Shown here one piece after another: positions 9,061 to 57,139 of a stretch of DNA of 64,000 nt (positions are counted from its first letter, which is position 1; each line of letters starts with the position of its first letter). The notes under the pieces are model-generated. The model was not told the origin of the DNA and did not search any database. It saw nothing but the letters and a program-made list of their open reading frames with translations. Origin of the DNA: Marsupella aquatica (taxonomy: Eukaryota; Plantae; Marchantiophyta). Where the stretch lies: assembly GCA_973895155.1 (NCBI GenBank), contig OZ316893.1, positions 17,887,836 through 17,951,835 of the forward strand. Direction: 5' to 3'. A program made the position numbers and the translations under genes.

Positions 9061-9067
9061 TTTTATA
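9061..9067 (-). promoter_or_regulatory. Candidate TATA box (TATAAAA) upstream of the LTR ORF
   Basis: About 100 bp upstream of the ATG at 8959; conserved as TATAAAAA near 32495-32501 in the second copy. Confidence 0.55.
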
Positions 9068-10978: not shown

Positions 10979-13900
10979 TGTGGCACGTTTCCCAAGACCT
11001 CTAACCCCAAGAACTACCCTCAACCGATCATAAACCACTTGTTTATGTCCGTCCTCTTGCCTTATGGCAGCTATTCGGCTTGGAAATGTGATACTCTCCT
11101 TCGATCCACACTTACCGGACCGATTCTTTCACTGGGCTTGTGAATTGTGCACAACTGAGACACCTAATTCCTCTTTAACTTCTTTAGGTATATTTGTATT
11201 CCGCCCCCGGAATGTACCTCTACGGCTTAATTTCTTAAGCCGGCTGAAGGTCTTTGTCAGACTGACTCAACCCACACTTCACCGACTAACACTCTCAATC
11301 CTCACTTTTCTCTCAGAGTTTGATTGGGCAGTTTCCAATCAAGACAATGCGATTGTATTTTGCTCAACAATTCACCCTATTTGACTTAAATCGATCAAGC
11401 AATAGATATCATAACACTCAATTTCTTGGATGGCAAGAATCTGCAAACTATGCAATGAGGCCAACTCAATTCAAACAATTCCTCAGAAATCCAAGGGAAC
11501 TGGTGGTTTACTGATACCCTGCGGTCTAGATTTAGCCAAGAGCTTCCTGTGCTCACAACAATACAGATTAACACTAAAGCCTTGACTAAGAAAAAGCCCC
11601 CGAAGCCACGCTGCCCAGGTTTTTATCCTTGCAGCGCATTCAGGAAAAAACAAACGGAAATCCTAACCACCACACACGGCCTTCCACCGCGATAATCCTA
11701 CCAAAAAACTATCACCTAAAAACTTGAATAGCCCGGAACCCTGTGTGAACCGAGCATCTACTACTACCTAAGCTGACAGGGCGCTACTTGCCCTGTCCCA
11801 TCCTACAACGGCCGCGCCCTTCTGGCCCAAGCCCTTCTCCTGCCGCCACGTCCTCCTTCCAACCGATGACTGGCCCTCCTTAATTGTCAGATGACCGGGG
11901 GTAAGTCCGAATCTTCTAACTCTGCACCTTCTCCTGCCATCGGCCCCGGCCTGACCCCTTCGGCTTCCTCGACTTTGGCTTCTGGTTTTCCGGCCCCGGC
12001 CTCGGTCTCGGCATCGGCATCTGCATTGGCATCCTCCTGGGAAACGGCTTGGAGAGCCTTTGCCTTAACTTCCTCAATCCAAGCCTTTTCCCCGATGCGC
12101 TCGGTCTCGATAACCCACGGTTTCACGTTCTGTGCGTCCATAGAAGCAGTACCATCATGTAAACCTTTTACCGCAGCTCCAAGTTGATCCGCAGTACTTA
12201 CCTCTACCACCGCTGCCTTCAGGGCCACAGGTCCACAAATGTGAGCGGCCATGCTCTCGACTTCCTCCGGAGTGGCTTTAAGGGCCTTAACTTTATTATC
12301 GCCTGGCCCCATGAACGTCTTTGCCAAGTCTGCCACCAACTGCATGGCTTTGCCCCCAGTCACGCTTGACAACAGGGAGCTTGGCTTCGGCTTCGGCTTC
12401 ACTATATTTCCGCCTACCATACTACTGTCGGGAAGCCTTTCAGTTGGTGACCCATATCCCGCTTCGGCATACTTCTTCAATTTCTGCGTTTGATTGTCGG
12501 CACGCCTCTGCAACCTGATCATCTTATCCTTGGCCTCCTCCAATTCCTGAGATACGTTTTCAATTTCATCGTTAAGCCGTAGTATCTCGGCCCTGGCCGT
12601 CTTCAAGGCCGTCTTCAACTCCTCATTTAAGATCTGCACGATCTCCAACTCTTGCTTATCTATGGCTGCTTTCAAGGAGTCGTTGATACCTTCCAGTTTT
12701 GTGACCTCGTTCGTCCATGCCTGCTTTGTCCTGGTTAGCTCCTCCTGAAGCTCCTTGCGTATCTGTTGAACCCGATTTAGGTGATCATTGGCCGCCGTGC
12801 ACATGGCGTCATCATGCTTCTCACGCATGGCCTCCAACCGGTCGAGTAACTTATCATACTTCCTTTGGGCTTCTGCCAAGGCCTTTGGGCTTCTGCCAAG
12901 GCCTTTTCGCTTTGGGTGGCCTGCTCCTTAGCCGTCTTTCTAAGCCTCTCAACTTGGCGATTTAAACCCTGTACTTCTACTTTTGAATTGGCTAACTCCA
13001 GCTCTATCTTCGTCAACTTTTCCTTGATCTATTGGTTATCCAATTGGTAGTTTTCCAATTGGTTGTTTGCCACTTCCAATTCCTGCTGCCTAGCCAAGAG
13101 ATCCTGCTGAGTTGGTTGACCAGACTTTGTCTTAGCAACTTCGGCCTCCATGGTGCGAAGCCGAGCGATTACTTCCTCCTTCTTCAATTGCTCCAATGTC
13201 ATTGCCTCCTCCAGTCTCGTCTGATCAGCCATTTCTTTTCTAAGAAATGGCCCGGATTCCAACTCGTAGCTGAAGATTTCTAAGGCTAAGAGTCCACACA
13301 TGTCTCCATACTCCTTAGCCCAATTTCTTGCATAGTTTGACCTCCCAGGTGATACTGGCATCTGCCATCGAGGTCGTCTCTCCCAAGCTTTTGCCCGTAA
13401 TTGGTCGAAGTCAGTGAGAGGTTCGGCTTGCCTCTCACTAAGCCGTCTTATTCCTTCCAGCCACTCTCCTCCTGGTAGCTGGCATTCATGTTCTGCATTT
13501 CGGGCCCCCCACTCCTTAATCTTCTCATGTAGCCCGGCTTCAACTTCCTTCATCTTGTCGAATTCCAATGGCATCACATCTGGTGAGGAGATTCTGGCAT
13601 TTTCTGGTCCTCCGGTTTGCCATAGAAGACCACGGGAAGTCTTCTACAAAACCTTCCCATCGTTCTAACTCCTGGTACCGGCCTCTCCCCGTGATCGACA
13701 TAGTCATCGTCGTAATCATCCACATTAACCTGACTACCTAACATGCCGGCCTCTCCTCCAAAGCCCCCGATCTCTTCCTCTGAAAATTGTTGGGCTGCTG
13801 CTGGTTGACCTTCCTCCACGGGTCCGTTCACTTGGGCTCTGTTAGAAGCTTTTACTACCGGCCTCTCTTGGCCTCGGCTTACCTCCTCATCTGTCTCCAA

Positions 13901-15645
13901 ATCCATTCGCTCGTCATATTTCTTTCTCTCTTTGGTAGTCATCTTCCTCTCGACCAACTGGATGCCTACATATGGATTATTGCGAGTAGGCCGGTGTAAC
14001 GGATTTCTCACTATATCATATGTTACTACCTCTGGCTCCTTGATAGGGGAATGCTCCCATTCTCGTGTTGCCTGTGTTGCCGACCTCCTCCCGTGGTGTC
14101 GTATGTTTAGAGGCTCCTCATCCTCCTCCACCTCCTCAAGTGGTGCAGTGATCTGCATCCGCTCTTGTATAGGCAACACTGGTGCAAAAGACTGGCTTCT
14201 TGCATATCGGCAAAGTAATTGCAGATGGTACCCTAGTCTGGATACCGCTCCCTCCCCAATGCTCTGCTTCTCTTCGTTTAATGCCTTCTTCAACTGCATT
14301 AAGAGATAGCCGTTGTAGTCTCGGCTTGCATCGATATTCTCTACCAAAAATACCTGGGCTTTGCCAATTTCTGCTCTTGGCAAGGTACAATGCAATGTGA
14401 CTCTCAGGAAATCAATCAGCTGCCCTATATGTGGGTTGGTACATTGATTCCTGAAAAACCCATTCTTAGTGGAAGGCCCTGGAAATGACCTGAACTGGTC
14501 GTCCGGCAACGTCTTCCTCTGCTCCACCTTTGTCTTCCTTCTTGTTGGTAAAGCGAACACGGCTTCGATAAGCGCAGGTGTTAATTCGAACACCTTTCCA
14601 TACAGCAGCGTTGTGTTGGAAGAAGCCTCCCAGCATCCCACGAAGTCCAACAGATCCTCATCCGGTATGTCTACCATTCTCCAGGACAACCTGACAATGC
14701 CCTCCAACCCAGTATCATTCATATATCCTGCATATTTGTTATCCTGAACGGCACTGAAGACCTCATCCTCATCTCTTGCGAACTGTAATTATAAATTGGC
14801 AGGTAACTTGTTCGCCCACCCTGTCATGTTTTTATCTTCTACAGCCCGATCTCTAATTGGCCCGGATTCCATCTTGATTGGTCTCTCCGACCTAGTTTGC
14901 TTTGCTGGAGTTGCAGATGCCGAAACTTCCTTGCGCTTCATCTCTTCAGCGCCTGAATACTTCCCAAGAATAGCTGCCTTCGTCCACTTCGCAGTGTGAC
15001 CCTTCAATTCCCAAAGTGGTTGCCCGGCGTTCTTGATTGCCTCCCTGATCCCCACGACCTTATTCTCCTGAATTAGCAATTCGCCAAGCTCTGCACTGGT
15101 GGGTGTCCACAAGAACTTTTCCAACACCTCCTCCGTATCAACGAATGCCAATTTGTGAATTCCCCACAATCACGCAAGCTCTGCTCGTTCTCTGGCTGCG
15201 CGCTCCGGCTCAACGTCTTCATACGTAGGTATCAGCTGCCTTGCTTCTTCAAGCAAACAGCCCCAAAACTTCCCTGCCTGATTCACCATGTTCATTCCAC
15301 CGAATGCCAAGAACTTGCGCAATTTCCCAAACCACCTCCTCCGATCGATCGGCAGCTGATTCCACCTCCCTAGGTTGATCGAACAAGCAATTGCACTAGT
15401 GTATAGAGTGTCGGTCCCCTCCCTACGAAGCCGCCTCCTGATGGCTTACCTGATCAAGCCCTGATTAGGTCATAACCCTAATCCCACTTAATCGCGACCG
15501 TTGGATCAGATCCCATCACAATTTCCCTTGAACATATTGCAATCGGCTTCGATCCTTATAACTCCCTAATTATATCTACCTAATCTTTATTTAGCCATTA
15601 TTTTAGGCTTAACTAAGTACTTCGTGATCCTGGCACGGCATCACA
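10979..15645 (-). repeat. G2 5' LTR, about 4.7 kb
   Basis: TGTGG...TCACA termini, adjacent PBS, homologous to 60107-64000. Unrelated coding sequence starts right after 15645. Confidence 0.8.
11887..15289 (-). pseudogene. G2 LTR-encoded accessory ORF (plant-mobile-domain-like plus long coiled coil)
   Basis: ORFs 14789-15169 (in frame with an ATG at 15289), 13574-14722, 13029-13577, 12777-13016 and 11887-12879. Motif LLDFVGCW..YGKVFELTPALIEAVFALP. A 20-bp duplication at 12862-12901 causes one frameshift. Confidence 0.8.
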
Positions 15646-18600
15646 CAAAATGTGGATGACATTGAGAAATCGGTGGTCAATGTCATTGAAAAGCATGTGA
15701 TGTCATTTGAAGTTGATGCGAATGGGTTACCAAAGGAGCCTCCAAGAATTCCTTTATGTCGTCTCGTTCACATGGAGGTTGTGCGCAATCTTCAGAGGAA
15801 TAGTCAATCGATTGAGAAGCTAAAGGACTTGTTCCGGATATCTAGATACAATTCGTCCATTGGCATGCGCTTTTTTGTTCAGCCATCCAACGCTGAAGGT
15901 AATCCGCAGATTTGTACAGATGAAATTTGGGGCACTTGGGATCCTCTTTGGATCATGGAGAACCAGTTGTTCGAAGCGGAATGTGAATCAGACCCCGCTT
16001 TCCACGTCCTCAAGGACAAAATATTCTATGTTTTTGATGGAAATCATCGGCTGTTTTTGTGGACTCAAGTCACAAACAAGAGTCCAAAGAATCCTAAGTA
16101 TCATCCTGGCATGCAATGCACAATTTTCAAAGGAGACAAGGCATCAATCATCGAGATTGAGGCAACGATGCATATTGTTAACCAGTGAGTTTTCTTTCAC
16201 CACCGACTACTCTTCCCAATTTTGATTGTTTCCCTTCGACAATTTCTCCCTTTTTTCAGGTTGTATTGTTAGGTTAGCGCCAGGCGCTATTTCCAATGTC
16301 CTCAATTTCACAGGACGAGACAGGCAGTGGTAGAGTCTTCTTGGATTTTGGATGCAGAGAGAATCATGAGGATTTTGGCTCATGATCTTGAGTACTACAA
16401 ACCCATAATTGATGAGGCAAATTATGCAAAATTTGAGAAGACAAGGAAAGGAACCCGAAAGGGTTCGTGGTTTACCAAGAAGATGCCAATGGATGCGTTG
16501 GTATACATCTTGTGTGAAAACAAGATCAAATCGTACTCGCAGCAATTTCAGGTGATGAAGAACCAGGCGAGCAGTTCCGACGCTCCATGGTCAGTCGAAG
16601 AGACGAATCTTTGTCACAGTCAGATGATGAAGGAAGCCACTAAGGAGTGGACTGTGAAAACTCCGAAGCTCACTTCCTTGCTGAGCCCAGAGTTTGAAGA
16701 TTTCATGGACACTTGTGTTGAGATGTATTGTCTTACAGATCGACTCAAATGTGAAAAGGTCCCTGAAGCTGTATTCTACACCATGGATAGAGCTTGATGT
16801 TCACTGCCAATTTGGCATTAGATCCAAAATTGCGAAGTACATTGCTTGTTGCACATTGTACTCCCAAGTTAAGGAAACAGTTTTTCCATCCGCTCGGAGT
16901 ATCGGACGACCTCGTGAAGCAGTGGTGCCACACCTGGCATGTTTGGAACACGATTGAGGGGATAGCAACTACTCTCCTTGAGGCATGTTTGAAGGAGGCT
17001 ATGGGTTCATGCACCAAACAACGTCTTACAACACTCGGTGGAGAACTAATTTCCTTTGAGAAGTTGAAGGCTTTGATTGTAGATGATTTTAGAAAGTAGG
17101 GGGATTCCGTAAGGGCCAAGTTTTTCAACACTATTTGGGAGTCCAAGTACGTTGACAAGGAGGATTTGAGTGAAGTGAACCGCAAGAGAGCCAAGAGATA
17201 TTTGTATCGATAGTATGTGAAAATGGAGAGGAGTGACCCGAGCTATTTCTGGGCTCATCCTGGTGCCTTCCAAAAATGGGCCGTTGTGAATATGAGGTCT
17301 GAAGCGTCTGGAGACTTTCTTGGGTACACCATGTACCCACCGGAGGGAAAGTTTCCCCCAAGGAAAATGGCAAAGTGGGAGGTTTTGCATTGTCCGTGGT
17401 ATCTTGACACAGACAAGTTTGATGAGACAGAGAAAGATGCTTTTCACAAGCTATCAAAGAATTTGGAGCCCATAAACATTTTGTCAGAGATGAAGCAGGG
17501 AATTGATGTCGAGATTGATCTCTTGGCGATAGAACTCCAACGGATTTGTGAGACGCAAGTCGTCCAAGTTGCAAGGAGTCGAAACCAAGAGCAAAATCCA
17601 AGCAAGAAACAACCCCAAGTGGATCTCAAAAAGAGACCAAAAAAAGTGAGTTCCTAATTTTGTAGCTTCAAATCTTCGTAATTGTCAATGTTTTATTTGG
17701 TTAGCACCAGGCGCTGTTATTAATGTAACAATTTCTCTAGCAGGATCTCGGAAATCAGATGCAGGGTTGGTGTCGGGTAATGCTTTGACTGCAACTCCAT
17801 AGCTTTCTCGTGACAACAGTCTTGGGAAGGATGAGGATCCGCCAGAGGGGTCAGAGACCCCGGAGGATGTGAGTGCTCCGCCAGTGGATGCCACGAGCAC
17901 TAGGAAGAAGAAGAAACGTTGCGTTTCTACTTCTGGTGGGTCTCACAGGGAAACGCTTGCGGCGACTAGTTTACAGAGGAATGTGGGGGACTTCAAGGGG
18001 AATAAAACCAGGCCCACATTTGTGGAGTCTACCTTGGCATAGTTCTACGATAGTGTGTTTCAGAGGGAAGCCATCTTGGGTTTCTCGTGTAGAGGCCTGG
18101 GGAAAGAATCTTGTGAAGTCGGGTTCTTGATCGAAGGGGGTTATTAGAGGTGGAAAAGTTAGGGCATTTGGTGTCGATGCAGGATTTCTATATCTGCCTA
18201 CCGGATTGAGGCCATCACTTTTTGACAAGAAAGTCCCGAAATGGAATGTGCAAGACCACTCTCTCCCTAGGGCTTTCTTTAGCGCAATGGACCCTTTCCT
18301 ATCGGACGATGGACTTCTGGCTATTCTTCACACTGGAGAATATGACCAGATTTCAGAAGTGATATCTGCATGCCAGCAGTCACAAAACTTTGACTGTATT
18401 GCATCGTATATAGTTGTCATGGGGTTTCCTATGTACAAACCTAAGTCTGACACTCAAGTACTTAATGACATCCATTCTGGTCGGGTATGGCACACGTGAC
18501 AGTAAACAGGAAAGAGATTTATTGGTACCAGCAAAATTTTTCCTGTTACCAGCAAAAACTTACTGTTACCAGGAAAAATAACCATGTCAAAATATTTTCT

Positions 18601-19558
18601 AAAAAGTCTAATTTTCCAAAAAAATTTAAGTTACAACATCTTTTGGCTAGCTTTGGGCGCTAGCAAATAAAATGAAATTTTGAAAAACAAAACCCTTTTT
18701 TTCCCCAAAAACAAATTTCAAAAAAAATTCACAAAAAATTCACAAAAAATTACCACTCATTTTCTTGTTACCAGTTTCTGTTACTGTTTGCTGTTTCCTG
18801 TCGTTTGTAAATACCCCTTTTGGCCAGCGCCAGGACCTAACCTTGTATATCATTCATTTTGGCCAGCGCTAGGCGCTAATGTTGTATATCGTTCATTTTG
18901 GCCAGCGCCAGGCACTAATCTATGTCTTTTTATGTCATGACCTTACTATTCTATTGTTTTGTAGATCTTCACGCTACGGTTGGATATATTCGATCGGGTT
19001 TTGAGAAAATAAACAATACCAAAAGATCCCAAGTTCCGTCCATTGTTGCCTTTCGAAGATCCTTCAATTACAAATCTGGTAGGACTTCCGTCTTTAAAGT
19101 CGGATCCAATGCCATAACTTGTGGCTTGTGGAAATGGGCGGCTCACAGTTGCTTTTATGCAGTCCATTATAGAGATCATCTCCTGTCCAGGGGATATTGT
19201 GATCGACTGGACCTGTTGCTCAGGAAGTTCATTCGTGGCGGGAGACTATTATGGTAGATTTGTTGTTGGGGTGGAAGGGCGAACAGAGTTTGTCACGGCT
19301 TCAAAGTGTATCTTAGCTGACCTTTTGGAGCCAAAATCAACTTTGACTCCAGAGAAGAGATTGTCAAGGAAAGTGAAAGAGAAGTTGGATAGAGTACGAT
19401 CAATTTTGAACTTTGATTCCGAAGAGAGCGAGCCGGATGTTGCTGGGGAATCTGATGAGGAAAAGATTCCAGTTGTCAATCTAGGAGACAACGAGGGAGA
19501 GAAAACAAATCCCTCAGGATCAAAATATGATTTCGAGGATGAGGAGTCTTCTAAGTAA
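15646..19558 (+). pseudogene. Spliced ParB/Srx-domain plus N6/N4-DNA-methyltransferase-like gene, copy A (5' end displaced by G2)
   Basis: ParB-like IPLCRL..FYVFDGNHRL. MTase-like VDAGFLYLPTGL, FLSDDGLLAILH, IIEIISCPGDIVIDWTCCSGSSFVAGDYYGRFVVGVE. Predicted GT-AG introns at about 16185-16313, 17646-17743 and 18458-18964. Confidence 0.75.
18491..18808. mobile_element. MITE-like insertion in an intron
   Basis: Inverted repeats GACAGTAAACAGGAAA (18498-18513) and TTTGCTGTTTCCTGTC (18787-18802), 14/16 match. AT-rich interior; no TSD found. Confidence 0.6.
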
Positions 19559-19631
19559 TGCTCGTAAGTTCACTCCAAATGTACAACTGTTTTCAACAAC
19601 ATATTTTTGGTAAACTTAGTGTTTGTTTTAA

Positions 19632-19944
19632 TATGGATGAAACTTTCAGGTTGGAGTGGAATACGCGAAGAAGGTTTGAACTCCGGAAAATGATCGCTGA
19701 AGCTATGGAGATTACACCAGAAAAACCATTTATTCTCCCATCCTATGCTGAGAAAGCCGCCAGAAAAGTAGAGAGGTCTCGGACATTATCTTGGGAAACA
19801 AAAGGTCTAAGACTTAGAAGAGGTTCTGATAGGAAGTTTTTGGTGAACAAATTTGTGGATGACATGTGCCGGAGTGAGTTTGTGGACGACGAGGCGGAGT
19901 CAACCGATAGATCCGATAGTAGTGAGACAGAGTCATCTGAGTAG
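19632..19944 (+). CDS. Small conserved protein or terminal exon downstream of the MTase-like gene
   Basis: LPSYA..KFVDD plus an acidic tail, similar to LPCYA..KFVND at 56058-56312 in the same position relative to copy B. Confidence 0.5.
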
Positions 19945-21789
19945 ATCATTTATGAGAACCCCATTTGTATCATTTCCATCGTATAAAAATGTTCAGACAT
20001 GAACAAATATTTGTAGTCAAATTGGTATATTGTGTTCACAAGTGAGCTTGGAGAAATATGAAAGTTCAATATTTCACTTTAGCGCCTAGCTTCATTCCAG
20101 AGACTATTGCAAAACTTGGATTCAGATTATTTTGGGGACATGCTCTGGGTGACTCGTATTGTATAGCGTCTGGCATTGATCAAATAACATGTTTTCGGAA
20201 TTTCCAAGGAACGAAAATGATATGGAAATGACTTTGTTTTTGATAGCGCCAGGCGTTAGTCAATAATATGCCTTCCAGAACGAGTATTACCGTTGAAGTT
20301 TTGTCGGTTAAGTGAAATGAACGTTAGCACCCATTGGAGCGATATTCCCCGTCGGTCCATTCTCATGCGTTGGTTTGGTCGTATGTCCGTTGAATCCAAA
20401 AAATGGCAATCCTTTGAGGGGGCATACATTCAAGTATCTATTCACAGTGTGACCGTCAGTCAGCGAAACAAGTATCTCCGGGAGGCCTAAGAGCACAGTG
20501 TGAATAGCTGGAATGAAACTCGTCTGGAGGGCTTAAGAGTCTAACCGTCAGTCAGCGAAACTGTCACAAGCGTTGAGTAACCCGATCAAAGTAACCGTCA
20601 GTGGACGATATGGAGCGTCTTGGTGTCAATGTCGATAACATTGTGCGGCCCCAGAGGGAAGTGCCAGCATTGGAGGAGCAGACCGATCAGACGGTCAACT
20701 TTGGGTCATCGACATCGATTGCAGACACCGAGACTTGCGTGACCAAGACTTCCGACATAAGGAATCGTCTCCAGCTGCCTGCAGACGAGGATATGAGCCC
20801 GGGTAAATGGAACATTCCTTGGCTTCCTGATTCTCCTCCGAGGCCATTTCATGAGAGATTCTCAATTCATTATCCAACTCCCGAACATCCTTCATCGAAT
20901 GTCTTCTGGGATGTGGAATTTCAGTCTGCCTAATTTCTTGGTCGTATCAATTTCTATGATACAAACCTTCTTGAGTCTTCATCGCGCCCTTCGCAAAGGC
21001 TTCCAAGTGCGCGGTACGTTGCAACTCGAACATTTGGCTTTCGACAGAAGCCAAAACGCAAGAAGGCAGGGCTCAACAACAAATGTGAATCTTTGTTTGA
21101 TTTGGGATCATCCTAGGATCATGGTGGTCATGGTCTGGGTAGCGCCTAGCGCTACTCATTTCATGGAGGAGACCCACATCCGGTTTGTAGTTTGGAATTG
21201 GAGGAGGTGCACTTGGTGCTTCATTTTGGGGTTAGGCTAGGCTTGTGAATGGGTTCTTTCACCGAGGGTTACTCTGTTAGAGTGAGGTTGACTACAGTTC
21301 GCAGGGCTCAATGACGGATTTGGGTCTTTCTCTGATCCGGCATTCTTGAATAGAATTGTGGTTAGACTCTTAGGCCTCCCGGAGATACTTGTTTCGCTGA
21401 TGCGATCTGTGATCCGATGAATAATTTTGAATCGGTGGAGGTGGACTTTAGGCTCCTCATTTTGGAATTTTGTATTGTGCTTCATTAGTAGAAGTGTGTA
21501 TACACAATGTTTTCGCTTTAGTAAAAATAATTTTTGGCTTGAGTTTTGTGAACTGGTATCATTATGTTTTTCATTTTTGGGTAGCGCCTGGCGCTATGAT
21601 GTTTCATGGTTGTGTTTCATTATGGTATTCATTTTTGGGTAGCGCCTGGCGCTATGATGTTTTCACGTTTGAGTCGATCACTATGTTTGGAACCATGGAT
21701 GATTAAAAGTGAACATTGCTTTGGATTTTGAGAGTTTTTACCCATTGACTAGCCGGGTTATTCATGGAATATTCTCTTTGCACATGTTA

Positions 21790-21882
21790 TTTTGGGATAT
21801 ATTGTTGACATTTTGGTTGAATTATTTTCCTGTTTCCTTTTTGCTGTTTCCTGTTTGGATTTTCCTGTTTCTTGGCACGGTG
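21790..21882. mobile_element. Candidate right terminus of the DNA transposon carrying copy A
   Basis: The reverse complement CACCGTGCCAAGAAACAGGAAA resembles the MITE left end CACACGTGACAGTAAACAGGAAA. Repeated TTTCCTGTTT subterminal motifs. Confidence 0.4.
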
Positions 21883-23166
21883 GTGATACCCTATGGTTAA
21901 TGTGTAAAGTTTTTTGGAGGGATACATGTTGGGGGATAATATTGTTGGCGATCTTCGCTAACAATAAGTTGTCCTATACAACATACAAAATATGAAAGTC
22001 TACCCGTCAATTGATACTCTTTATCAATATACAATATTATATGTCAATATTGCTAGTGAGGATATATTCTTGTTATCTTGGCTTAACAACAATGCTGCAA
22101 AGTGAACATATGAGGACAATTTATCCAAAAGTTGCACAAATTTTCCTTATACCATGAGTTTTTTTCCTAATAACAGTAAAATTTCTCCTTTTTATTAACA
22201 TCGTTAGTATACCCTTCAGTAGAGTTCTACTAGGGAACCTGTCTTGCTCAATTCTCTCCTCGCTCTCTCTCACTCTGTGTCTCTCTCTGTCTTGCTCTCC
22301 ATTGTCTCCACTTTCCATCATCCTCTCTCCTGATTGTTGGCACTTGCATTCTGCTTTTGTTATGAAGCTTCAATTGCTTCTTTGCCTCTGCTGAGGTGTG
22401 ATTTCAACTCCGCGGTCCAGTCCTGTCCTCAGTTGCAGAGTGCTAATTTGTGTCTTGCAACAACCCTTCAAAACTGTGCACTGCAATGCTCCATCTCCAA
22501 TTTTATGAATTAGAAGTTAATACGCGCGCCTATATGCTTGACTTGTGCCTTTTGAGGCTTTTGGATTAGAGGTTGCTACTATCCAATCTCAGAGCCCTAA
22601 ACTTCAAATTTCCTCTATGCAATTCTACCTCTACATTCATGTTTTGCCAACAAGAAGAACGCAAAGGGAGCGGGCCACTCTTCCATTGACTACTTTGCCA
22701 CTGTATGTATTTAATGCACAGGACATTAATGAAATGTGACACTCTATAATCTACTCCTATGCGGACAACTGATGAGCCAAACTCTATTTGTGGCACTCTA
22801 TCAGAACATTTTTCCACCCGATTGAGAGCTTTCTCTTTTGCCAAGCTAGGCACAAAGAAATCATTCCAGGGTTTCTGAATGCCTGAGGTCTGTAATCACT
22901 CCGAGCCCTCTGCATTGTCATTGCTTTGTCTTCAGTGGTGGTCAGGCCTTTGTGCTACCATTGCCAAGATTTTATTTGCTGCCTGCAGACTTGCATGTTT
23001 GCTTCAATTTGCTACTCTACGGCTAGTCATTAGTTTTCTTTCACGATTAGCGAGTGTCCAATGTTAGAGTCCTGGGTCTCCTGGCATGTCTGTAGCAGCT
23101 TTTGTCTATTCCATTCAACTCCACTAAGACTGGCCATACTGTGTTGTTTCTATCGGGGTTGAAGTC

Positions 23167-47005: not shown

Positions 47006-47960
47006 TGCGGAACATGAGAGCACTCAATCTCACACTATGCCAACAAGACACCACAATCATGGAGAAACTCCTGAAGGATCCTCATGAGATTGAACATGTG
47101 AAGAATGAGGGAGAGAATGCTATCCCTCCAATCTATACCCCCCAAGGGGGACTAAGATATGTGGGCCTAAATAAGTGGATCTTATCCTAACTAACCAAGG
47201 GTCAATTAACCCTAGTAAGGCCAAACTAACTATAGTCAGGAACTCGAGTCAATTCCTAACAATCTCCACCTTGACTCAAGTTCACACAATGAGTCAGGGT
47301 GATATACAATATGTAACTAAGTAACATATCTATATAGTCTCTGGTTTGGCCTTAACATTAATTATATCCACACAATGACTAAAGCTACTAGTAGGTAAAA
47401 CTTTGGTAAGCATGTCTGCAGCATTCTCCTCTGAAGCCACCTTCTCCAAAAACATCTGCTTCATCTCAATCACCTCACAGATGAAGTGATAACAAATATC
47501 AATGTGCTTTGTCCTTGCATGGAACATTGGGTTCTTAACCAGATGCAAAGCACTTTGACTATCACACAACAACACCGGTCTTTGAGGTGAAAGACCCAAA
47601 TCACTCACCAATCTCTGTAGCCAGATCAGCTTCTTGGTTGCCTCGCAAGCAGCCATGTACTCAGCCTCAGTAGTAGACAACGCAACACACGATTGAGTTG
47701 TTGACTTCCAGCTGATACAACCTCCACCCAACATAAACACATAGCCTGTAGTAGACTTTCTATTATCCAGTTACCAGCATAATTTGAATCTACATAACCT
47801 CCCAACTCTAATGTAGAGTCTACTTTATCGTCAAATAGAATCCCACAATCTAAGGTTCCTTTCAGATATCACAAAACCCACTTCACTGCTTCGCAATGAG
47901 GTTTACCAGGGTTTGCCATAAATCTGCTCAAAATGGTAACGGCGTGAGCAATGTCAAGTC
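47006..47960 (-). mobile_element. Ty1/Copia 3' end: RT/RNase H remnant, PPT and a ~256-bp 3' LTR (47006-47261)
   Basis: [35 protein letters not shown]. Minus-strand PPT AAGGTGGAGA is followed by TGTTAGG. Confidence 0.9.
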
Positions 47961-50900
47961 CACCATCCACATAGCAATAGTGATTCAGCGGTTATATCAT
48001 GGCTAGCAGTGTGGTCAACACCGGAGAGGAAGCTGGCGAATGATTAGGGAATACCTTTGGCAGACTCCACCAGGATTTTAGAAGAGAAGGGAGGATTTGC
48101 ATTGGCAGACAGCCTTGATGCTCGGTGTGACCTTTGAATGGGGGAACCGGATACTTTGGGCTCCCCGATGTCTCCTACCTAGAGGTGTGGGAATGCTGGC
48201 CCTTCCAGCTGAGTGAAGGGAGAGGAGGTTTTGAGAGACGAGATGAAGTTTTTTCATTTTGCCTCTTGGAATGTCTGCGGACTGTGTGATCCGGACCAAA
48301 AGAATGTTGTTTTGAAATGGGCCTCCAATTTGCGACCCCACATTGATGCGCTTGCCTTACAAGAAGTGAAGGCTGAGGCTTTCAGGCTGGATATTGCTCT
48401 ACGAGCAATATTGCCTTCCTTTAAGTATTACTACTCGGCTCCTGACAAGGGAAGAGGTGAAACTGCCATTTTATTGCATCCATCCTTTGGGGTGCGCTCA
48501 TCTGGCACCATTGATAGAGGCCGAGCAGTATGGATTCGACTGGAGCATGCGAAAGGTGATTTTGGTTTAATCAGTGTCTACGCACCTAATTCATCAGGAG
48601 AACAAAGCTTACTGTGGAATGATCTACTTAATATTTTACCACAGGACAGATGGATTATCTGTGGTGATCGATTTCAATATGATTGAAGACCCACAAGATT
48701 CTACATGTGTAACTTCTATTATCCGAGGTAGGGAGTTGGACCTTTGGCGACTATTAAAGCTTAGATTTGATTTGCAGGATGTCCAAGGAATTTTGGGACT
48801 GGTAAAGGGTTCCAACTTCACTTGGAGGAGGGTTCGCTATGGGCGCATTATTCAGTCTCGACTTGACCGTTTTTACCTTAGCAAAAAAGGGCAGTGGATG
48901 GCGGAAATCATTGAACTTAAACATGATGGCTCTTATGCTTTATCGGATCATGATCTAGCTACCTTTACCTTTTGGATGACCCCTCTCTACGATACGGAGC
49001 TGATTACTTGCAGAGCCACTTACTTTAAAGCAAACCCAACGATTCTAAGAAAAACTGAGAATATCGAAACTCTAGCAGAGGCATGGAAGGATGGGCAGGA
49101 AAGTAGGATGGATGCACATTTGAAGTTTGCCAATGCATTTCAGAGGCTGAGACGAAGCTTCATGGAATTACAATACTCTCCGGTCCCGTGGGATGAAGAA
49201 ATGGTGAGAGTAAGGAATAAACTTTGCTTGCTGAAAATTGCAATCATGGATGATTACTCCGAAGATACTATACAAGATTTTGCTTGTACTGATCAGTGCG
49301 TACGTGAAATGGAATTAGAAGAGGCCCATCATCATCAACATCTGTCTAGAATAACGTGGCTGGGACAGGGAGAGGAACCTTCTAAGTTTTACTTTTCAAT
49401 GGTAAAGGCTAAAAGAGTAAGAGAAAATATGGAATATCTGATCACTGAGGAAGGGAGGGAGATACGAGAGGAGAAATTGATACTGATGGAGGCTCGGGGG
49501 GTTAACTAAGTGTATATTTTGGGGTACCACGTGCGATCCTAGCTTAATATAAATAGACCTATTTTATAAAGAAAATATTCCAAGAATATTCTCTATTGTC
49601 AATATTAATAACCTATTTTACTTTATAAAAGGTATATATTAAAGAATATTCTATAAACATGAGTTTATAATACCTTCTTTTGCCTCCTACGCTTTTTAAA
49701 AATTTAGTTAAAATATGCCAAAAATACCTATTTTGGATCGCACGTGGTTCCTAAGATTTTTGATAGTCAACCCCCCGAGGATGGAGGTACAACGACATTG
49801 CCAGGCATTGTACACCCCACCGGTAGTGAATAACGAGGAGCTGAGAAAAATGCATGTGGCCAGAGACAGATTATGTCAACACACTCACTTCGCTCTGCCT
49901 ACTGCGGAGATCCGAAGGCTGGAGAGGCTGCCTACTATGGAAGAGTTACATGAGACACTGAGATTACTACCAGGAGATAAGGCACCAGGAATAGATGGCA
50001 TGACCGCTGAGGTCCTACGTGCTTGCTGGGCCTTCATGAAAGAAAATTTCTTTGAAATGGTGTGCGATTTTTGGAGGACCGGTAACATCGCTTTTGGAAT
50101 CAAAGAGGAAGTGATCCAGTTCATTCCCAAGAAAATTGACAAAAGAAGATTGGGAGATTGGAGAGGGTTAACTATGCTCACAACTACATACAAGGTGATT
50201 GCTAAGTTACTTGCTCTGCAACTCAAGATACTACTACCTAGATTGATTAGTCCATAGTAGACGGGATTCATCCTGGGGCGACACATTTTGGAAAATATTT
50301 CCCTTACCTGGCTAGCAAGCGACTGGATTAATCTTACGCAAACTCCCACTCTATTTCTACAACTCGATTTTGAAAAGGCCTTTGATAGGGTAGATCATTC
50401 CTATATCTGGGAGACGATGAACTTACTAGGAATAGGGTCTCCTTTCATCTTTCTGGTTCGATCTTTACTTAGCAATGGACTATCCAAACCGTTAGTGAAT
50501 GGATTGTGGACGGAGGAAATTGGTACGAGCCGGGGTGTGAGACAGGGATGCCCTCTCTCCCCGCTGCTGTTTGCTATCTCCACGCAACCATTTATGGATT
50601 TCTGTAATGCAGAGATCGCTGCTGGTAGATTGCAGGGTCTTAGGATTAATTCTTCTTTACACATATGCTTTAGATTGTTTGCGGATGATGTAGGATTTTT
50701 CATTCCAACCACTGTTGAAGCTTTTGACTAGGTGAAGGAGGCGATTAGTTGTTACAAAACGGCCTCAGGAGCCAGACTGAATCTGAAAAAATCTGTGATC
50801 ATCCCATTTGCTTTGGAGGTGATTTCGGAGTGGCTTAGAAACACCAGATGCAAAATTAGCAAAAAAGGTATGGTGTAGTGCTACCTCGGAGCACCCTTCG

Positions 50901-52783
50901 GAGTGGACCTGTTGGAAGCACAGCTGCATAAATTTTGTCTAGATAAAATTGGGGCGAGGCTATCATCGTGGTCCACCAGATTTTTATTGTTCACATGACG
51001 TTTACTACTGATAAAACACGTCTTACAGGCTATTCCAATTTATCACATGATGTTTATACAATCATTAGGGGAGCTAGCTAAGAAGATGACAATTCTGAAT
51101 AGAACTTTTCTATGGGGAAGTAACCATCTCGGAGGACGTCGAATACCATTGGTGGCGTGGGAGAAGATGACACGACCTAAACTAGAGGGGGGACTTGGAT
51201 TGAAGGAATTTAGAAGTCATTTTGATGCCTTGTTGTGCAAATGGTTTACTAGGGCACTGGATGACCCGAATTTTGAATGGGCCAAAATGTATGCGGCGAA
51301 TCTCAGACTGACAAAGTGGCAAAATTACAAGACTATGAGGAGGAATCACTATTCCATGACGGATCTGCTACTACTGAGTACCCCAAGATCTTTTGGTAAA
51401 TTGGCATATACTAGAAAGCTTTGGGGTGCATGGGCAAAGGTACGAGAATACTTTATTTTTTGCCCTGGCACAGGCTCTATTCCAGGGAATTGGGGCATTG
51501 AGGACACGATACGTTGCTTGCACGGTTTTACCATCTGCCCGAGAAGGATATCACAGAGATTGTCCAAATCTTTGGCCGATTGGGAATTCGGACCACACGG
51601 GACCTCTGGTCTACAGTGGACAATAGATGGAAAGACATGTCAGGAAAATTACAAAGATTGAGAGGATTCACCATCACTGGCCAAGCACACAACGCATTAC
51701 TTCTGCAAAATCTTACTGAAGCCAGGATTGAAAGCAGCGCACCACTGGCGGATGCCTGCCTTTGGAGATGGACAGATTTAGCTGCGAGGATGAGGAATTT
51801 TGGATTATCCAATATGAGGGTATATGAGATGCTACGACCCAAGGGCACAGACTCGGATCGATTAAACCGAATATGGACAGAAGCACTTACAGAGATGGAG
51901 TGGAGAGGCATTTGGAAAGTGTTGTGGAGATCAGACCTTTCTATGAGAGGGAAAGTTTTCATTTGGCGTGTTCTAGCACAAGGATTATTCTCGGGATCAA
52001 GGGCATTGAAGATTGAGAAATCTAATGGTCATTGTCTGCTCTGTGACAACATGTTAGAAACCATCTCGCATCTATTCTGTCACTACCGTCATGCACGATA
52101 TTGTTGGATTGAAGCTAAAACTTGGATGAACGGGGATCTCATTGGTACTTATCTGAGCATCATTGGGCTGCTGAGATCATTTCAAGGTCGCACAGTGTTA
52201 CACTCACTCAGGGCATTTATAATTTGCCAGATTGTATGGAGCATCTGGCTTGCTAGGAACAGTCAAACCTTTGATTTGGCACAGCGACGAGTGTTTGATC
52301 AACTACATGTCATTTCAGACACAATGGATCATCTGGCTGCCATTATTGTAGCTGCCATCCCCACCTCTGACAGGAAAAGGAGTCGACTACACGCTACATC
52401 TGAAATGCTGAGAGAGGAATGCACAAGGCTGGTTAGGTCTGGAGTTAGAAGGCTGATAACTCGATAGGGGTTTTTTTTAATTAGGAAGTCTTAAGGTTCT
52501 ACGAGGATTTGCTTTCAGCTATGGACTTGCTATGAAAACCAAGTAGAAGCCCATAGAATGCTAGGTGGAAAGGACATCTGACTTATCCTTCTCCTGGATT
52601 TTAACTGTAGATTGAAATCTAAGGATTCTTACCAAGGTGCTGTTAGTTTGGCTTAGGGTCTTGTGGAAAATCTTTACTACCCTTGGGGATTTTTTTGCCT
52701 TTGCGGCCTGCTGGTTTCCCTCTCTGTGGGGTTCAAGCGGAATAAACAAAAATTTAAAATTAAAATAAAATAAAATAATAAAA
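47960..52783 (+). mobile_element. L1-type LINE with degenerate ORF2 (APE endonuclease, RT, zf-RVT)
   Basis: SWNVCGL, LQEVK, SRLDRFY, SDH; KAPGIDG, LDFEKAFDRV, GVRQGCPLSPLLF, LFADD; CLLC..HLFC. A-rich tail at 52741-52783. Confidence 0.95.
49493..49779. mobile_element. 287-bp MITE with 8-bp TSD
   Basis: TIR CTCGGGGGGTT(A/G)ACTA, 15/16 match. TSD GATGGAGG at 49485-49492 and 49780-49787. Removing it rejoins the LINE frame (LILMEVQRH). Confidence 0.92.
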
Positions 52784-55493
52784 TGTGGTGTTACATCGAC
52801 TACGTTGGTTGTATCTTGTTGACCGATTTTGCTGAGAAGGCCTACCAGCCTGGCAATTTTAGCGGAACGCGAGAGGAATTTGCTGAGATATATAGAAAGC
52901 TTTACCGATCTTATGTGCAAGAGAAATCCTTAAAAGTAGGCGGTGACATTTGGAATGAAGGGAATACCAAATTGGCGTTTCGGGAAGCATGGATAAAGCA
53001 AACAAAGCGGTGCGTGACAAGATTTCTCATACATCAGGAGAACATGAATGCAACAATGTTGAAACAACTACCATTGGCGATTAGATCTTGGATGGAGGCT
53101 ACAGGTAGCCTTAGCATGTATCCATGTGATGGTTGCATGCCTCATGGCAGAGTATTCTTGGATTGGGAACGGAGGAACTGCCCATGGTACATGGAGTATG
53201 ACAATTGGAACACTTTTCTCGAGGTTGCCGAGAAGGATAGTGCAGACCTGCTCAAAGAAGCACAGGAACCTTGTAATTACTACGATATAACAAAGTTGCG
53301 ACAACTATCAGATTCAGTAACGGAGGCAACAGAGGTGGAGACCCTTATCCCAACTGACCCTGCCTATGACGGGAAGAAGGCCAGAAAAGAAGGTGAACGG
53401 AAGGTTGAGAAGGAACCATCGAGCAACATCAGTCAGTCTGACTCTCTAACCAGTCCAAGAAAAACATCAGGTATTACTCGATTCCTTTTGCACTGCATAG
53501 TGGTTTCATTTGGAACTACATCTTGGCTGGGTTTGCTAACATAGTACTAAACCAATTTTGGGGTCGTTGAGCTATACTGCATCTCATCTCGGCGAGGCTC
53601 GCTGAGAACAAACAAGTTTCAATCGCATCTCGTCCGAACCCTTGGATCTCATCTTGGCGAGGCTTGCTGAGAAGAACATCCAAATGTCGTCCGGACCCTT
53701 GGAGATAAAGTATAACGTCCAGTGTCTATGGATCTCATCTCGGTAAGGCTCATTGAGAAGAACAACCAAATGTCGTCTGGACCTTTAGAGATGAAGTATA
53801 ATGTCAAGTGTCTGGATGTCATGTCGGCTAGGCTCGCTGACAAGCTTAGGATCAATAACCCCATTGCTTTGCAATCTATCCAGGTATGAAGGAGATACCG
53901 GAGGAACCAGGTTCTATAAAAAGCAAGGCTGTAGAAGTGGCTTCAAAGCCAATTATAGAGAAGGCTCCACAGCCAACAATAGAGTCAGCTACAAAACCAA
54001 CTGCAGAACCAACGATAGAGCCGGCTATACTACAACAAGGCAACCAGCAAGTGGAGCAACAAAGCGTGCAGCCTTCGACAGAGCCAATGGTAGACCAGCC
54101 TCTGGACCAACAAAGCGAGTAGCAACAAGAGCATGACGCATCCTAGGGAGAGAACGCAACCCAAGGAGGGGATCATTCAGATGACGTATGGGTAGATAAA
54201 AAAGGAGAAGATGAACGGGTAGAGGACGAAGGAGAAGATGAACAAGAGGGGCGTGAGTCTGATACTCCGGCGCCAAAATGGATGCCATTATCCTCAAGGC
54301 CGAAGACAAAGGCTGCAAAAAAGACCAAAACAACGAGGCCCAAACCTCACCGCGCAAAAGCATGTGACACTGAGCTTGAAGACATTCTGCCCAGCCCCAT
54401 AGAGCAACCCGGAGTCGGATGGCATAGAGGTGGTTGGAGTTTGGCGTTCAAGCGCCGATAACTTTTCTTCCCCGCTCAGGCATTGTTATTTTAAATGGTC
54501 TCCGTATCTTTTTAAAACTTACTTTGACGCTGCCAATGACAGTAAAGAACCGGCTGTGGTACTCCGTTTTAGAGACTGGTGCAGAAAGCTTGGGCGGGCT
54601 GGTTTGGCTGCAGAAGGTTGGGTAAAGAACGGGAAGCCTGCAAGGTCTGGTGCAAATCTGATTCAGATTCAAATGGGATTAGACACCCGCATGCACGCAG
54701 ATGGGAACATCCCATTGTGGAATTTGTTTCGGCCAGACGACCTCAGTCGGGTTGAGGATTTTGTGCAAGTTTTCCTCGATGATGAGGGATTGTTTGGCAT
54801 AGTGCACAGTGCTTCGGTTGCCCACTCCGCAGTACTTTGTGACAATCTCAATTACAAAGAGACCAATTGGGTGCTGAAAGACACCTTTTTCATCTAGAAT
54901 GCCACACCCACCTTCGACTTCACGACTCGAAAGCGGGTAAGTCTAATAGATTTAACTCCATTCTTGTCTGATGTTCTTTTGGTGACTTGTACTCAGAAAG
55001 ACTCATCACTGACTTTGTTATGTACGTCCAGAGTGAATATCTCAAGCTGGACCTTTGGGGATTTAAACCGTCTGCCGAGGTATGCCCAAAGGATGACGTG
55101 AAGCCAATCAATGTCGAGCTTGATATGAAGTTGAGGAACGGGCTAACTAACTATACAACGGGTCAGAATGAGACCATTGATGATTTTGGTGGCACCTTGT
55201 CTCCAGCTACACTCCAATGTATAATAGAATATACAACTAAGCCAGGGGGAACTGTTGTCACGTTCAATGCACACTTCGGGGCTATCTTTAAGGCTGGTGA
55301 GAACTGTGGGTGGATGGTCTTTGGGACCAAATCCTATCCGTACTTCAAATCTTATGCGTTAGACACGATGACAGAGTTCATTGGAGTGCCTCTAACGGAG
55401 CAAGAGGAGGCAATGGATCGTCAAACATCCAATCCAGAAAAGCGCAAGAAGAAAAAGCCTTCATGTGAGTTTACTACCGTTTCCCTTCAATGA
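52784..55493 (+). pseudogene. MTase-like gene copy B (ParB end missing at the LINE junction)
   Basis: WERRNCPWY matches WEVLHCPWY of copy A; IPLWN, FLDDEGLFGIVH, IIEYTTKPGGTVVTFNAHFGAIFKAGENCGWMVFG. Predicted intron 53471-53883. Confidence 0.7.
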
Positions 55494-55867
55494 TTTTAAT
55501 ATTGTCCCATAGTATTTCAGCGGACTCTCCGAGATGGCTCTCCATCTAGGAAAATCCATCTCGGTTGACGTCTTCGAGATGCATGTCGGCGGGCCTAGCC
55601 GAGAGGATTGCATCTGGCCCGGGCACTTTGAGATTTGCTGGAAAGTCCCTCTCAGCTGGCCTCTCCAAGATGCATGTCGACAGGCCTCGCCGAGAGGAAT
55701 CGCATCTGGCCCGGGCATATTCAGATTTCCAGGCAAGTCCATCTCAGCGGGCCTCACCTAGATGAATCCCGGGTGGCCTGGCCACGTCAACTTCTACTGG
55801 CAAGTCCACGTAGGGCCTTAGATGCGTCTGGAGGGACAAAAATACATCTTGGCTAGCCTCTTTGAGA
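53587..55867. repeat. Palindrome TCTCGGCGAG-S-CTCGCCGAGA in two clusters
   Basis: Copies at 53587, 53652, 53738 and 53822 (intron) and at 55584, 55650, 55675, 55742 and 55847, plus degenerate copies. Confidence 0.85.
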
Positions 55868-56057
55868 TCTATCTCAAAAGGCGACTCAATGGAATATCTG
55901 GGGTGTCCATATTGGCTCACTTGCCCCACAAATTTGTTCTTGTGATCTGTCTATTTCGGTGCAATACATGATTTGATTTAAGTATAACTTAGTAGCAGTT
56001 CCCGACAAGACCACCAAGTCGGCAACCAAGGAATGGGACACACAGGACAGACGACTT

Positions 56058-56312: not shown

Positions 56313-56411
56313 TTTTTGGGTGAATTTACCTTCATTGCAGCTCAAAAGCAAATTGAGCCACAACAACCAGTCGATGAGGCAGTGACTGCCTAGCAAGGAG
56401 TCAATCAGGGG

Positions 56412-57139
56412 GTGCTTGTGCACCAACGACCAAATCAGGGGGTGCCTGCACAACGACATCAACCCGCCATACTTGCGACCATAGTCAAAGAAGCATTGGA
56501 CCCCAACAGGGACCAAGATGAAGTCCTAGTCAGCCTCGGCGACTTAAAATTGAAGAGAAAAGATTTCAAATGCTTGAGGGCAAAAAAATGGCTCACTTGG
56601 GACATCATCAATGCTTACATTCCTCTATTGGAGCGTAGAGCAAAGGTCATTGCAAAACCTAAATGCATGCTTTTGCCCACACATTTTTACAATGTCTTGA
56701 CGCATCCTACGTATAGCTTCAACGCAGCGTTGGCATTTGTGAAGGGCATTGACATCTTTTCATTGGACCTCATTCTAATCCCATCCATAGGCCAAAACAT
56801 TGGGTACTAGTTGTGGTCGATTTTACTTTGCAGCAACTACATTTGCTCGATCCCATTGGAGGCAAAGCATTGGAATGCGACGATTTGGTGAATGTCGGTC
56901 GGTTTCTCCATGACCTGTCCCGCTTGCGCAGTTGTCCCCACTCATCGCCATTACAATGGCAACGCATTGTCCGCGACGATATTCCAGCCCAACCCGATAG
57001 TTACAATTGTGGAGTATATGTCATAATGTACATGGAGCGTCTTTCTAGAGGTTTTGTATTGGCGGTTGACCCTAAACATTTACTGCTTATACGACAAAAG
57101 ATTATTGTAGACCTAATCTGCCAAACGATCAGTTTGTAG
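56412..57139 (+). pseudogene. Ulp1/C48 SUMO-protease-like gene
   Basis: WLTWDIINAY, (frameshift) IHRPKHWVLVVVD, LDPIG, QPDSYNCGVY. The His-Asp-Cys triad and oxyanion Gln are present. Confidence 0.88.

What the first reader, a model, noticed from the sequence alone, without database searches (positions are those of the whole stretch)
15646..19558. Spliced ParB/Srx plus N6/N4-methyltransferase-like fusion gene in plant transposon DNA
Seen: an N-terminal DGNHR motif, and a C-terminal block matching the beta-class amino-MTase pattern (S.PGD.V.D...GSG.....A...GR...G.E) preceded by motif IV-VI-like strands. The gene has GT-AG introns and a second diverged copy at 52784-55493. Known: ParB-MTase fusions are typical of phages and prokaryotic mobile elements, ParB folds use the GxxR patch for nucleotide binding, and bacterial-type N4C MTases have been co-opted in Marchantia and bdelloid rotifers. 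Inference: a prokaryote-derived module is now carried by a plant DNA transposon.
Basis: partly seen in the sequence, partly recalled or inferred. Interest (0 to 1): 0.85.

Follow-up and report, generated by a model that had tools for sequence, protein, structure and literature searches.

The report
Dead transposon ParB-methylase gene with palindromes
This is a broken copy of a many-copied, intron-containing plant gene that joins a bacterial ParB-type fold to a DNA-methylase fold lacking the usual catalytic motif; each subfamily here carries its own palindrome in its introns, which the protein likely binds to keep its jumping gene active, an arrangement already reported in algae.

Summary
Five exons (15646-19944, longer than reported) encode a ParB/Srx-fold domain, a helical domain and a beta-class DNA amino-methyltransferase fold. 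Homologues occur in liverworts and ferns, some as single full-length gene models. This copy is dead (7 stops, 3 frameshifts). The second copy is another subfamily (27-31% identity), split by a LINE and lacking its ParB exon.

The catalytic [DNSH]PP[YFW] motif is absent in all 39 family rows that reach it (usually DxP-S/T/E; YLPT here), yet this exon shows purifying selection among sister copies. Each window copy also carries its own palindrome in introns and flanks (10 and 14 sites), and related loci carry others.

Best reading: a transposon accessory protein that likely binds its element's palindromes, VANC-like, with a probably non-catalytic methylase fold. Element ends, partner transposase, expression and a prokaryotic donor were not shown. 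The ParB+methylase transposon gene is published for Ectocarpus; my searches found no land-plant description. This scan noted it before on other DNA, including this genome.

The parts
15646..16184 (+). Copy 1 exon 1: ParB/Srx-fold domain, DGNHR at 16036-16050. The 5' end is cut off by a higher-copy retroelement-like nest ending near 15643 (inferred).
16185..16313 (+). Intron 1 (GT-AG, phase 2), position shared across the family; holds one palindrome (16275-16289)
16314..17645 (+). Exon 2: helical domain of unknown fold; frameshifts near 16790 and 17645, stops at 17097 and 17211
17646..17743 (+). Intron 2; holds one palindrome (17702-17716)
17744..18457 (+). Exon 3: low-complexity basic linker and first half of the methylase fold; motif IV reads YLPT (18191-18202); stops at 17800, 18040, 18128; frameshift near 18066
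18458..18964 (+). Intron 3; three tandem palindromes (18825, 18864, 18903) and a MITE-like insert (about 18483-18818) that holds a weak fourth site (18648)
18965..19554 (+). Exon 4: second half of the methylase fold with motif I (19205-19225); stops at 19010 and 19115
19650..19944 (+).
20244..21654 (.). 3' flank sites of the copy-1 palindrome TAGCGCCWGGCGCTA (20244, 21140, 21582, 21640)
47946..48017 (+). Copy 2, surviving piece of exon 2 upstream of the LINE
48018..52782 (+). LINE-like retroelement inserted into copy 2 between two adjacent codons
52783..56312 (+). Copy 2 (other subfamily): exons 52783-53470, 53884-54936, 55032-55464 and about 55999-56312; motif IV region reads IQIQMG (54661-54678)
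53519..53844 (.). Copy-2 palindrome array (consensus CATCTCGGC-N7-GCCGAGATG) in its intron 2
55557..55869 (.). Copy-2 palindrome array in its intron 4
56394..57139 (+). Broken Ulp1 protease gene just downstream of copy 2; possibly the same element (not shown)
   Evidence: PF02902, E=6e-14

Best explanation
This is a dead copy of a spliced, multi-copy land-plant gene whose intact product joins a predicted ParB/Srx fold and a helical domain to a predicted beta-class DNA methylase fold, and which likely serves a DNA transposon by binding that element's own palindromes.

Shown: the gene structure, the two predicted folds, the fusion, the loss of the catalytic consensus, purifying selection on the methylase exon, and a different palindrome in the introns and flanks of each window subfamily.

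Inferred: a dimer loads at the palindromes as ParB does at parS, may spread along the element in a nucleotide-gated way, and keeps it transcribed or transposable by shielding it from host cytosine methylation, as Arabidopsis VANC proteins do for VANDAL elements. The methylase fold is more likely a DNA- or base-binding module than a working N4C/N6A enzyme, at least in this subfamily, where Tyr replaces the catalytic Asp.
For: Folds: the exon-1 model (pLDDT 94) matched 12 of 48,161 chains at Z>=2, led by KorB (Z 7.0, rmsd 2.5, 92 aligned), PadC, sulfiredoxin and pNOB8 ParB; I recall all 12 as ParB/Srx-fold proteins. The Riccia methylase domain P0162 (pLDDT 80) matched M.BceJIV, CcrM, MboIIA and PvuII at Z 17-18 (Foldseek CcrM E=1.7e-12).

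Fusion: P0158 (1244 aa) and P0178; L023 and L016.

Motif IV: of 39 rows, Asp first in 31, Pro third in 37, Pro second in 0, aromatic fourth in 1. No majority change at the Tyr codon in sister copies from 4 runs.

Selection: 16 of 30 listed differences are synonymous against 23% expected (p=3.5e-4).

Palindromes: copy 1 has 10 sites (at most 1 in 30 shuffles), none in exons; copy 2 has 14 sites (at most 2 in 30 shuffles), 13 of them intronic; neither motif occurs in the other copy. Other clades carry other palindromes, with arms better conserved than flanks. In a palindrome-blind test, 7 of 21 gene regions against 1 of 17 controls had a significant palindrome (Fisher p=0.045).

Precedents: PMC12477816, the Bostrychia preprint and PMC5735166.
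Against: No binding, nucleotide or methylation data exist. The ParB match is below Z 8 and had no Foldseek hit at E<=0.001. The helical domain was not folded, so no DNA-recognition helix is shown.

No terminal repeats, target-site duplication or transposase could be tied to copy 1. The DUF7869 gene beside copy 2 lacks its palindrome, and none of 100 ORFs from long loci hit a transposase family.

The two apparently intact contigs (L016, L023) show no array in the DNA held, and 14 of 21 top repeats in the blind test were not significantly palindromic. The Fisher test is marginal, and related loci are not independent.

Asp and Pro of motif IV and a Gly-rich motif I are kept in most subfamilies, which fits a working enzyme.
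Confidence: 0.55

Rival explanations
1. The family is an active amino-methyltransferase with a non-canonical DxP active site. It would be guided by the ParB module to the palindromes and would mark its own element with 4mC or 6mA.
For: Asp in 31 of 39 and Pro in 37 of 39 rows; motif I and a complete beta-class fold are kept; the exon is under purifying selection; both window palindromes are CG-rich; the Ectocarpus authors propose this.
Against: The stacking aromatic and the first proline that PMC4738411 names as catalytic are missing in 38 and 39 of 39 rows. The window subfamily has Tyr at the Asp position, and copy 2 departs further.
Confidence: 0.27
2. The repeats are sites for the transposase or a TnpA-like helper, or are ordinary minisatellites, and the ParB-methylase gene is unrelated cargo.
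For: Several arrays are direct tandem repeats with weak symmetry (L052, L058, L038, L019); L016 and L023 lack arrays; subterminal repeats bound by element proteins are known for CACTA elements (recalled).
Against: Sites lie in introns deep inside this gene, differ between its subfamilies, and in copy 1 share only the palindrome (arms 0.86, flanks 0.49).
Confidence: 0.13
3. The family is a domesticated host gene family, not transposon cargo.
For: Present in liverworts and ferns with conserved introns; no element ends were found.
Against: Thousands of short contigs 80-99% alike lie on the region; copies are decayed and nested among other elements; many diverged paralogues exist in one Riccia genome.
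Confidence: 0.05

Closest known systems
Accessory gene of Sola1-1_Ec32, Ectocarpus (PMC12477816; passages and one supplement row read)
   Same: ParB-like domain plus N4C/N6A methylase domain in a protein of about 1100 aa on a eukaryotic DNA transposon; proposed to bind and modify its own element.
   Different: Brown alga, not a land plant. Its catalytic motif and any palindromes are not given in the passages read. Sequence homology to this family was not tested.
PAG2 and PAG3 of red-algal Plavaka, Mutator and Zisupton elements (bioRxiv 10.1101/2025.02.11.637652; passages read, supplements closed)
   Same: Transposon accessory genes with a PF01555 domain (PAG2) and a ParB domain next to tandem inverted repeats (PAG3).
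   Different: There ParB is fused to a 2OG oxygenase and the methylase to a SET domain, in separate genes; here the two are one gene.
VANC/VANDAL anti-silencing system of Arabidopsis (PMC5735166; passages read)
   Same: Element-specific motifs amplified in introns and intergenic DNA, differing between subfamilies.
   Different: VANC motifs are 8-9-base non-palindromic words, no ParB or methylase fold is described for VANC in the passages read, and VANC function is experimentally shown.
Bacterial ParB-parS (KorB, Spo0J, Noc)
   Same: Predicted N-terminal fold, a GxxR-type patch (DGNHR), and palindromic sites of about 14-24 bp.
   Different: No ParA partner seen; helix-turn-helix, CTP binding and clamping untested; fused to a methylase fold.
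Marchantia DN4MT1a/b and bdelloid N4CMT (bioRxiv 10.1101/2021.02.12.428880, PMC8885841; passages read)
   Same: Beta-class amino-methylase fold in a eukaryote (the rotifer structure matches at Z 15.5).
   Different: They keep (T)SPPY, are active host genes and have no ParB domain; DN4MT1 has no extra domains.
Fungal DUF3723 (PF12520), conserved Starship cargo (bioRxiv 10.1101/2021.12.13.472469; passages read)
   Same: Top language-model look-alike of the ParB+helical half (score 0.96-0.97); also cargo of mobile elements.
   Different: No Pfam PF12520 hit on any family protein scanned; a lead only.

Membership tests
ParB/Srx fold superfamily | ParB/Srx fold in the N-terminal domain | tested here: met
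   12 chains at Z>=2, best KorB Z 7.0 over 92 residues; Foldseek top rows Noc, ParB and Srx, best E=0.04. Moderate strength.
ParB/Srx fold superfamily | GxxR-type nucleotide-binding patch | tested here: met
   G124, H126 and R127 at least 90% conserved and N125 invariant in 40 rows
ParB (parS-binding CTPase clamp) | Helix-turn-helix site-recognition domain | not tested
ParB (parS-binding CTPase clamp) | CTP binding, dimer clamp and spreading from palindromic sites | not testable with these tools
   Needs biochemistry; the palindromes themselves are present
Beta-class DNA amino-methyltransferases (PF01555) | Circularly permuted Rossmann fold, motif IV before motif I | tested here: met
   Z 17-18 to M.BceJIV, CcrM, MboIIA and PvuII for Riccia P0162; same order in the window
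Beta-class DNA amino-methyltransferases (PF01555) | Catalytic [DNSH]PP[YFW] motif | tested here: not met
   0 of 39 rows; YLPT in copy 1; definition from PMC4738411
Beta-class DNA amino-methyltransferases (PF01555) | SAM-binding motif I | tested here: inconclusive
   Acidic and Gly-rich in Riccia and fern rows; DWTCCSG and TFNAHFG in the two decayed window copies
Beta-class DNA amino-methyltransferases (PF01555) | Pfam score above the gathering cut-off | tested here: not met
   Best 24.5 bits against 26.7; window exon 22.8
N4C-specific methylases (DN4MT1, N4CMT) | Ser-led SPPY motif | tested here: not met
   No row begins with Ser
Accessory gene of a TIR DNA transposon (Sola1_Ec32 type) | Lies inside an element with terminal repeats, target-site duplication and a transposase | tested here: inconclusive
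   Multi-copy; a conserved divergent gene lies upstream in L069 and L030 without a Pfam match; no ends found; no genome held
VANC-like anti-silencing factor | Subfamily-specific motifs amplified in non-coding DNA of the element | tested here: met
VANC-like anti-silencing factor | Binding to the motif and loss of methylation on expression | not testable with these tools
   Needs EMSA, ChIP or transgenic plants

The most novel reading that the evidence does not exclude
Liverwort and fern DNA transposons carry a bacterial-type ParB-parS system: a nucleotide-gated clamp that loads at a palindrome unique to each subfamily, spreads along the element and, through a methylase with a non-canonical DxP active site, writes a 4mC or 6mA self-mark that blocks host silencing. 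The same ParB-helical module may be the unexplained DUF3723 cargo of fungal Starships.
Probability: 0.22. Interest if true: 0.85.

Novelty: new variant of a known kind. Interest (0 to 1): 0.5.

Why it matters
Only one sequence-specific anti-silencing system of plant transposons (VANC) is named as proven in the papers read. This family offers a second candidate with matched pairs of protein and site across liverworts, ferns and unnamed plant-like contigs, so the algal authors' untested idea (a transposon protein that binds and modifies its own element) becomes directly testable by swapping proteins and palindromes. It also asks whether a ParB clamp can work in a eukaryotic nucleus, and whether a DxP methylase without the stacking aromatic is active. 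The copy in this window is itself only a fossil.

Tried and rejected
Genome and expression: no genome is held, so element ends and true dN/dS could not be worked out. No RNA holder was listed; this says nothing about expression.

Homodimer prediction for the ParB+helical half of P0158: no answer (score 0.00); not used as evidence.

Pfam and PDB sequence searches found no ParB family for exon 1 or its relatives, and nothing for the first methylase half.

Prokaryotic or viral relatives: none for the ParB profile in viral contigs. The four short hits L081-L084 fall in unrelated frames and have no second domain nearby; rejected as chance. These are pattern-limited searches, so a donor is not excluded.

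The DUF7869 gene (43770-47100, minus strand) as partner of copy 2: the orientation fits the Ectocarpus layout, but a copia-like fragment lies between them and it lacks the palindrome; not accepted. The divergent gene of L069/L030 looks Mutator-like by a recalled motif only; Pfam, PDB and (for the L032 ORF) the Atlas gave nothing. No partner LTR was found for the sequence that cuts the 5' end.

The first candidate donor for intron 3 (18485) was dropped for 18458, which fits sister copies and homologues. The original Sola paper is not held.
Full report
OBSERVATION. The last methylase exon hits PF01555 (E=1e-4, below the cut-off), PHROG DNA methyltransferases (E=2e-5) and, weakly, DpnA, CcrM and MboIIA in the PDB (E=0.04-0.33). 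Four GT-AG introns give five exons: 15646-16184, 16314-17645, 17744-18457, 18965-19554 and 19650-19944. Spliced by coordinates, the last three align to Riccia P0158 residues 887-1230 in one frame across introns 3 and 4. 31 of the 39 other rows of alignment A3, which I picked from 150 listed hits, stop at the intron-1 column, as a shared phase-2 intron would cause. No RNA run was available, so the splicing rests on homology.

STATE OF THE COPIES. Copy 1 has seven internal stops and three frameshifts, near 16790, 17645 and 18066. Its 5' end abuts a higher-copy repeat (depth step). Public runs hold many sister copies: 2887 and 7411 contigs, 80-99% alike or more, lay on 13000-26000 in two of four runs. 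In them the stops at 18040 and 18128 are open and the 18066 gap is filled in part of the contigs. Copy 2 is another subfamily, 27-31% identical, with introns 2-4 at matching places. A LINE-like element splits it between two adjacent codons (47946-48017 | 52783), and none of 153 family proteins found a ParB exon for it in the window.

FAMILY. A profile of the N-terminal half found 374 proteins at E<=0.001. Named members come from Riccia sorocarpa, Calypogeia fissa, Adiantum nelumboides and A. capillus-veneris. P0158 (1244 aa) holds both domains complete, P0178 (fern) holds both with a gap at motif IV, and contigs L023 and L016 carry all exons on one piece. The fusion is therefore real. In a 37-row tree of ParB domains the window copy groups with the Riccia proteins (92/97), apart from the fern rows and most metagenome loci; the root is at the midpoint only and several branches are long. 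No prokaryotic or viral relative was found by pattern-limited scans, so bacterial origin rests on the folds alone.

FOLDS. The exon-1 model (pLDDT 94) matched 12 of 48,161 chains at Z>=2: KorB 7.0, PadC 6.4, sulfiredoxin 6.2, pNOB8 ParB 5.7, then SerK, Atu1540, SbnI, SspE, Spo0J, BrxU and a Dnd protein. That all share the ParB/Srx fold is my recall. Z is below 8 and Foldseek gave no E<=0.001 (best Noc 0.04), so the match is consistent but moderate. The methylase domain was folded from Riccia P0162, not from the window (pLDDT 80). It matched beta-class amino-methylases at Z 18.2-16.9 (M.BceJIV, CcrM, MboIIA, PvuII; Foldseek E=1.7e-12). The helical middle domain was not folded. The ESM Atlas likens the N-terminal half to fungal DUF3723 (0.96-0.97), a Starship cargo gene, but Pfam did not confirm this.

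CATALYTIC MOTIF. PMC4738411 defines these enzymes by [DNSH]PP[YFW], the aromatic stacking the target base. Of 48 aligned rows, 39 reach the motif: Asp first in 31, Pro second in 0, Pro third in 37, aromatic fourth in 1 (four rows are one decayed locus family and one is a mis-spliced model). Copy 1 reads YLPT, and no majority change at that Tyr codon was listed in four runs (absence of a row is weak proof). Yet among the differences that one search lists for this exon, 16 of 30 are synonymous against 23% expected, and 19 of 28 places are third positions (p=3.5e-4 and 2e-4; the table is a filtered selection). The domain was thus kept by selection without the standard catalytic residues. Kept Asp, Pro and a Gly-rich motif I in most other subfamilies leave an unusual active enzyme possible.

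PALINDROMES. Copy 1 carries TAGCGCCWGGCGCTA at 10 sites with at most 3 mismatches between 16275 and 21654, six in introns 1-3 and four downstream, none in exons; 30 shuffles gave at most 1. Three sites are one tandem triplet and one lies in a MITE-like insert. Copy 2 carries a different word, CATCTCGGC-N7-GCCGAGATG, at 14 sites, 13 of them in introns 2 and 4 (at most 2 in 30 shuffles); neither word occurs in the other copy. L001 has two copies of the copy-2 word in its first intron. Among 80 metagenome loci, 13 of the 26 that are 2.3-7 kb long had five or more sites of some near-palindrome, against 0 of 10 window tiles. Clades differ in their word: TCTCGG-N2-CCGAGA (L018, 15 sites), GGTGCC-N6-GGCACC (L032, 17), ACTTTC-N6-GAAAGT (L073, 12), TTCGGCGCCGAA (L054, 7), with arms more conserved than flanks. 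Because that search looked for palindromes, I repeated it blind. Of 29 gene regions, 21 had a direct repeat in five or more copies, and 7 of those 21 consensus units held a palindrome at p<0.05; of 21 controls, 17 had such a repeat and 1 passed (Fisher p=0.045, and p=0.08 at the stricter cut). Against: copy 2 itself did not pass the blind test, arrays in L052, L058, L038 and L019 are weakly symmetric, and the apparently intact L016 and L023 show no array in the DNA held.

ELEMENT CONTEXT. No terminal repeats or target-site duplication were found for copy 1. Copy 2 is followed by a broken Ulp1 gene and preceded, on the other strand, by a DUF7869 gene that lacks its palindrome. A conserved gene lies head to head upstream in L069 and L030; it looks Mutator-like by a recalled motif but has no Pfam match, and none of 100 ORFs scanned (taken mostly from the 145 listed for 14 long loci) hit a transposase. 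Transposon cargo is therefore likely, not shown.

MECHANISM. Most likely (0.55) the intact protein recognises its element's palindromes as a dimer, as ParB does parS, and keeps the element active against host methylation, like VANC proteins whose motifs sit in introns and intergenic DNA of VANDAL elements (PMC5735166); the methylase fold then probably serves in binding rather than methyl transfer. The main rival (0.27) is an active enzyme writing a 4mC or 6mA self-mark. All binding and chemistry steps are inferred.

PRIOR WORK. PMC12477816 (passages, one supplement row) describes a 1104-aa ParB plus N4C/N6A methylase gene opposite the transposase of Sola1-1_Ec32 in Ectocarpus and proposes self-binding and self-modification. 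The Bostrychia preprint (passages) reports PAG3 (ParB plus 2OG oxygenase) beside inverted-repeat arrays and PAG2 (PF01555 plus SET); its supplements were closed and might list more hosts. Iyer 2011, cited there, was not seen. Marchantia DN4MT1 and rotifer N4CMT (passages) keep SPPY. Six searches found no paper on a land-plant version; most subscription journals are not covered. Unchecked notes of this scan describe the same system on other DNA, three of them in this genome. I had the motif-IV reading before and the palindrome results.

VERDICT. A real but dead copy of a conserved land-plant gene family; a new variant of a kind known from algal transposons. Interest 0.5.

Noticed in passing
window 18483-18818: MITE-like insert in intron 3 with imperfect terminal repeats; depth is several-fold higher there and sister copies skip it.
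   Followed up: partly
window 43770-47100 (-): Broken DUF7869 gene (PF25273, E=2e-30), Sola1-like by a recalled motif, with an 81-base tandem duplication at 46074-46235; lies next to CACTA Tnp2 remains at 41800-43140.
   Followed up: partly
window 23200-25590 (+): High-copy broken gene with PHD-like and BRCT-like domains just upstream of a CACTA transposase (26197-28735); possibly a chromatin-reader accessory gene.
   Followed up: no
window 20460-20546 and 21360-21400: 34-base perfect inverted arms around an open frame at 20595-20933 with no Pfam match, inside the palindrome-bearing 3' flank of copy 1.
   Followed up: no
window 56394-57139 (+): Ulp1 protease pseudogene directly after copy 2; Ulp1 cargo is typical of Mutator-like elements (recalled).
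   Followed up: partly
window 35117-35252 and 38093-38205: Two clusters of an 8-base unit (AACTCGTA/AACTAGTA) about 2.9 kb apart, perhaps the ends of another element.
   Followed up: no
L032:1755-3942; L032:3-731 (-): Fifteen palindromes lie between the ParB exon and a divergent open frame of 243 aa with no Pfam or Atlas match; looks like a young head-to-head element.
   Followed up: partly
L069:2400-6000 (-), L030:59-1061 (-): Conserved decayed gene upstream of the ParB gene, transposase-like by recalled motif, unknown to Pfam.
   Followed up: partly
P0158 residues 130-620: ESM Atlas look-alikes are fungal DUF3723 proteins, the unexplained Starship cargo; they may be ParB-like.
   Followed up: partly
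window 5437-9428 and 28885-32872: Two 80%-identical copies of a 4-kb retroelement-like segment.
   Followed up: no
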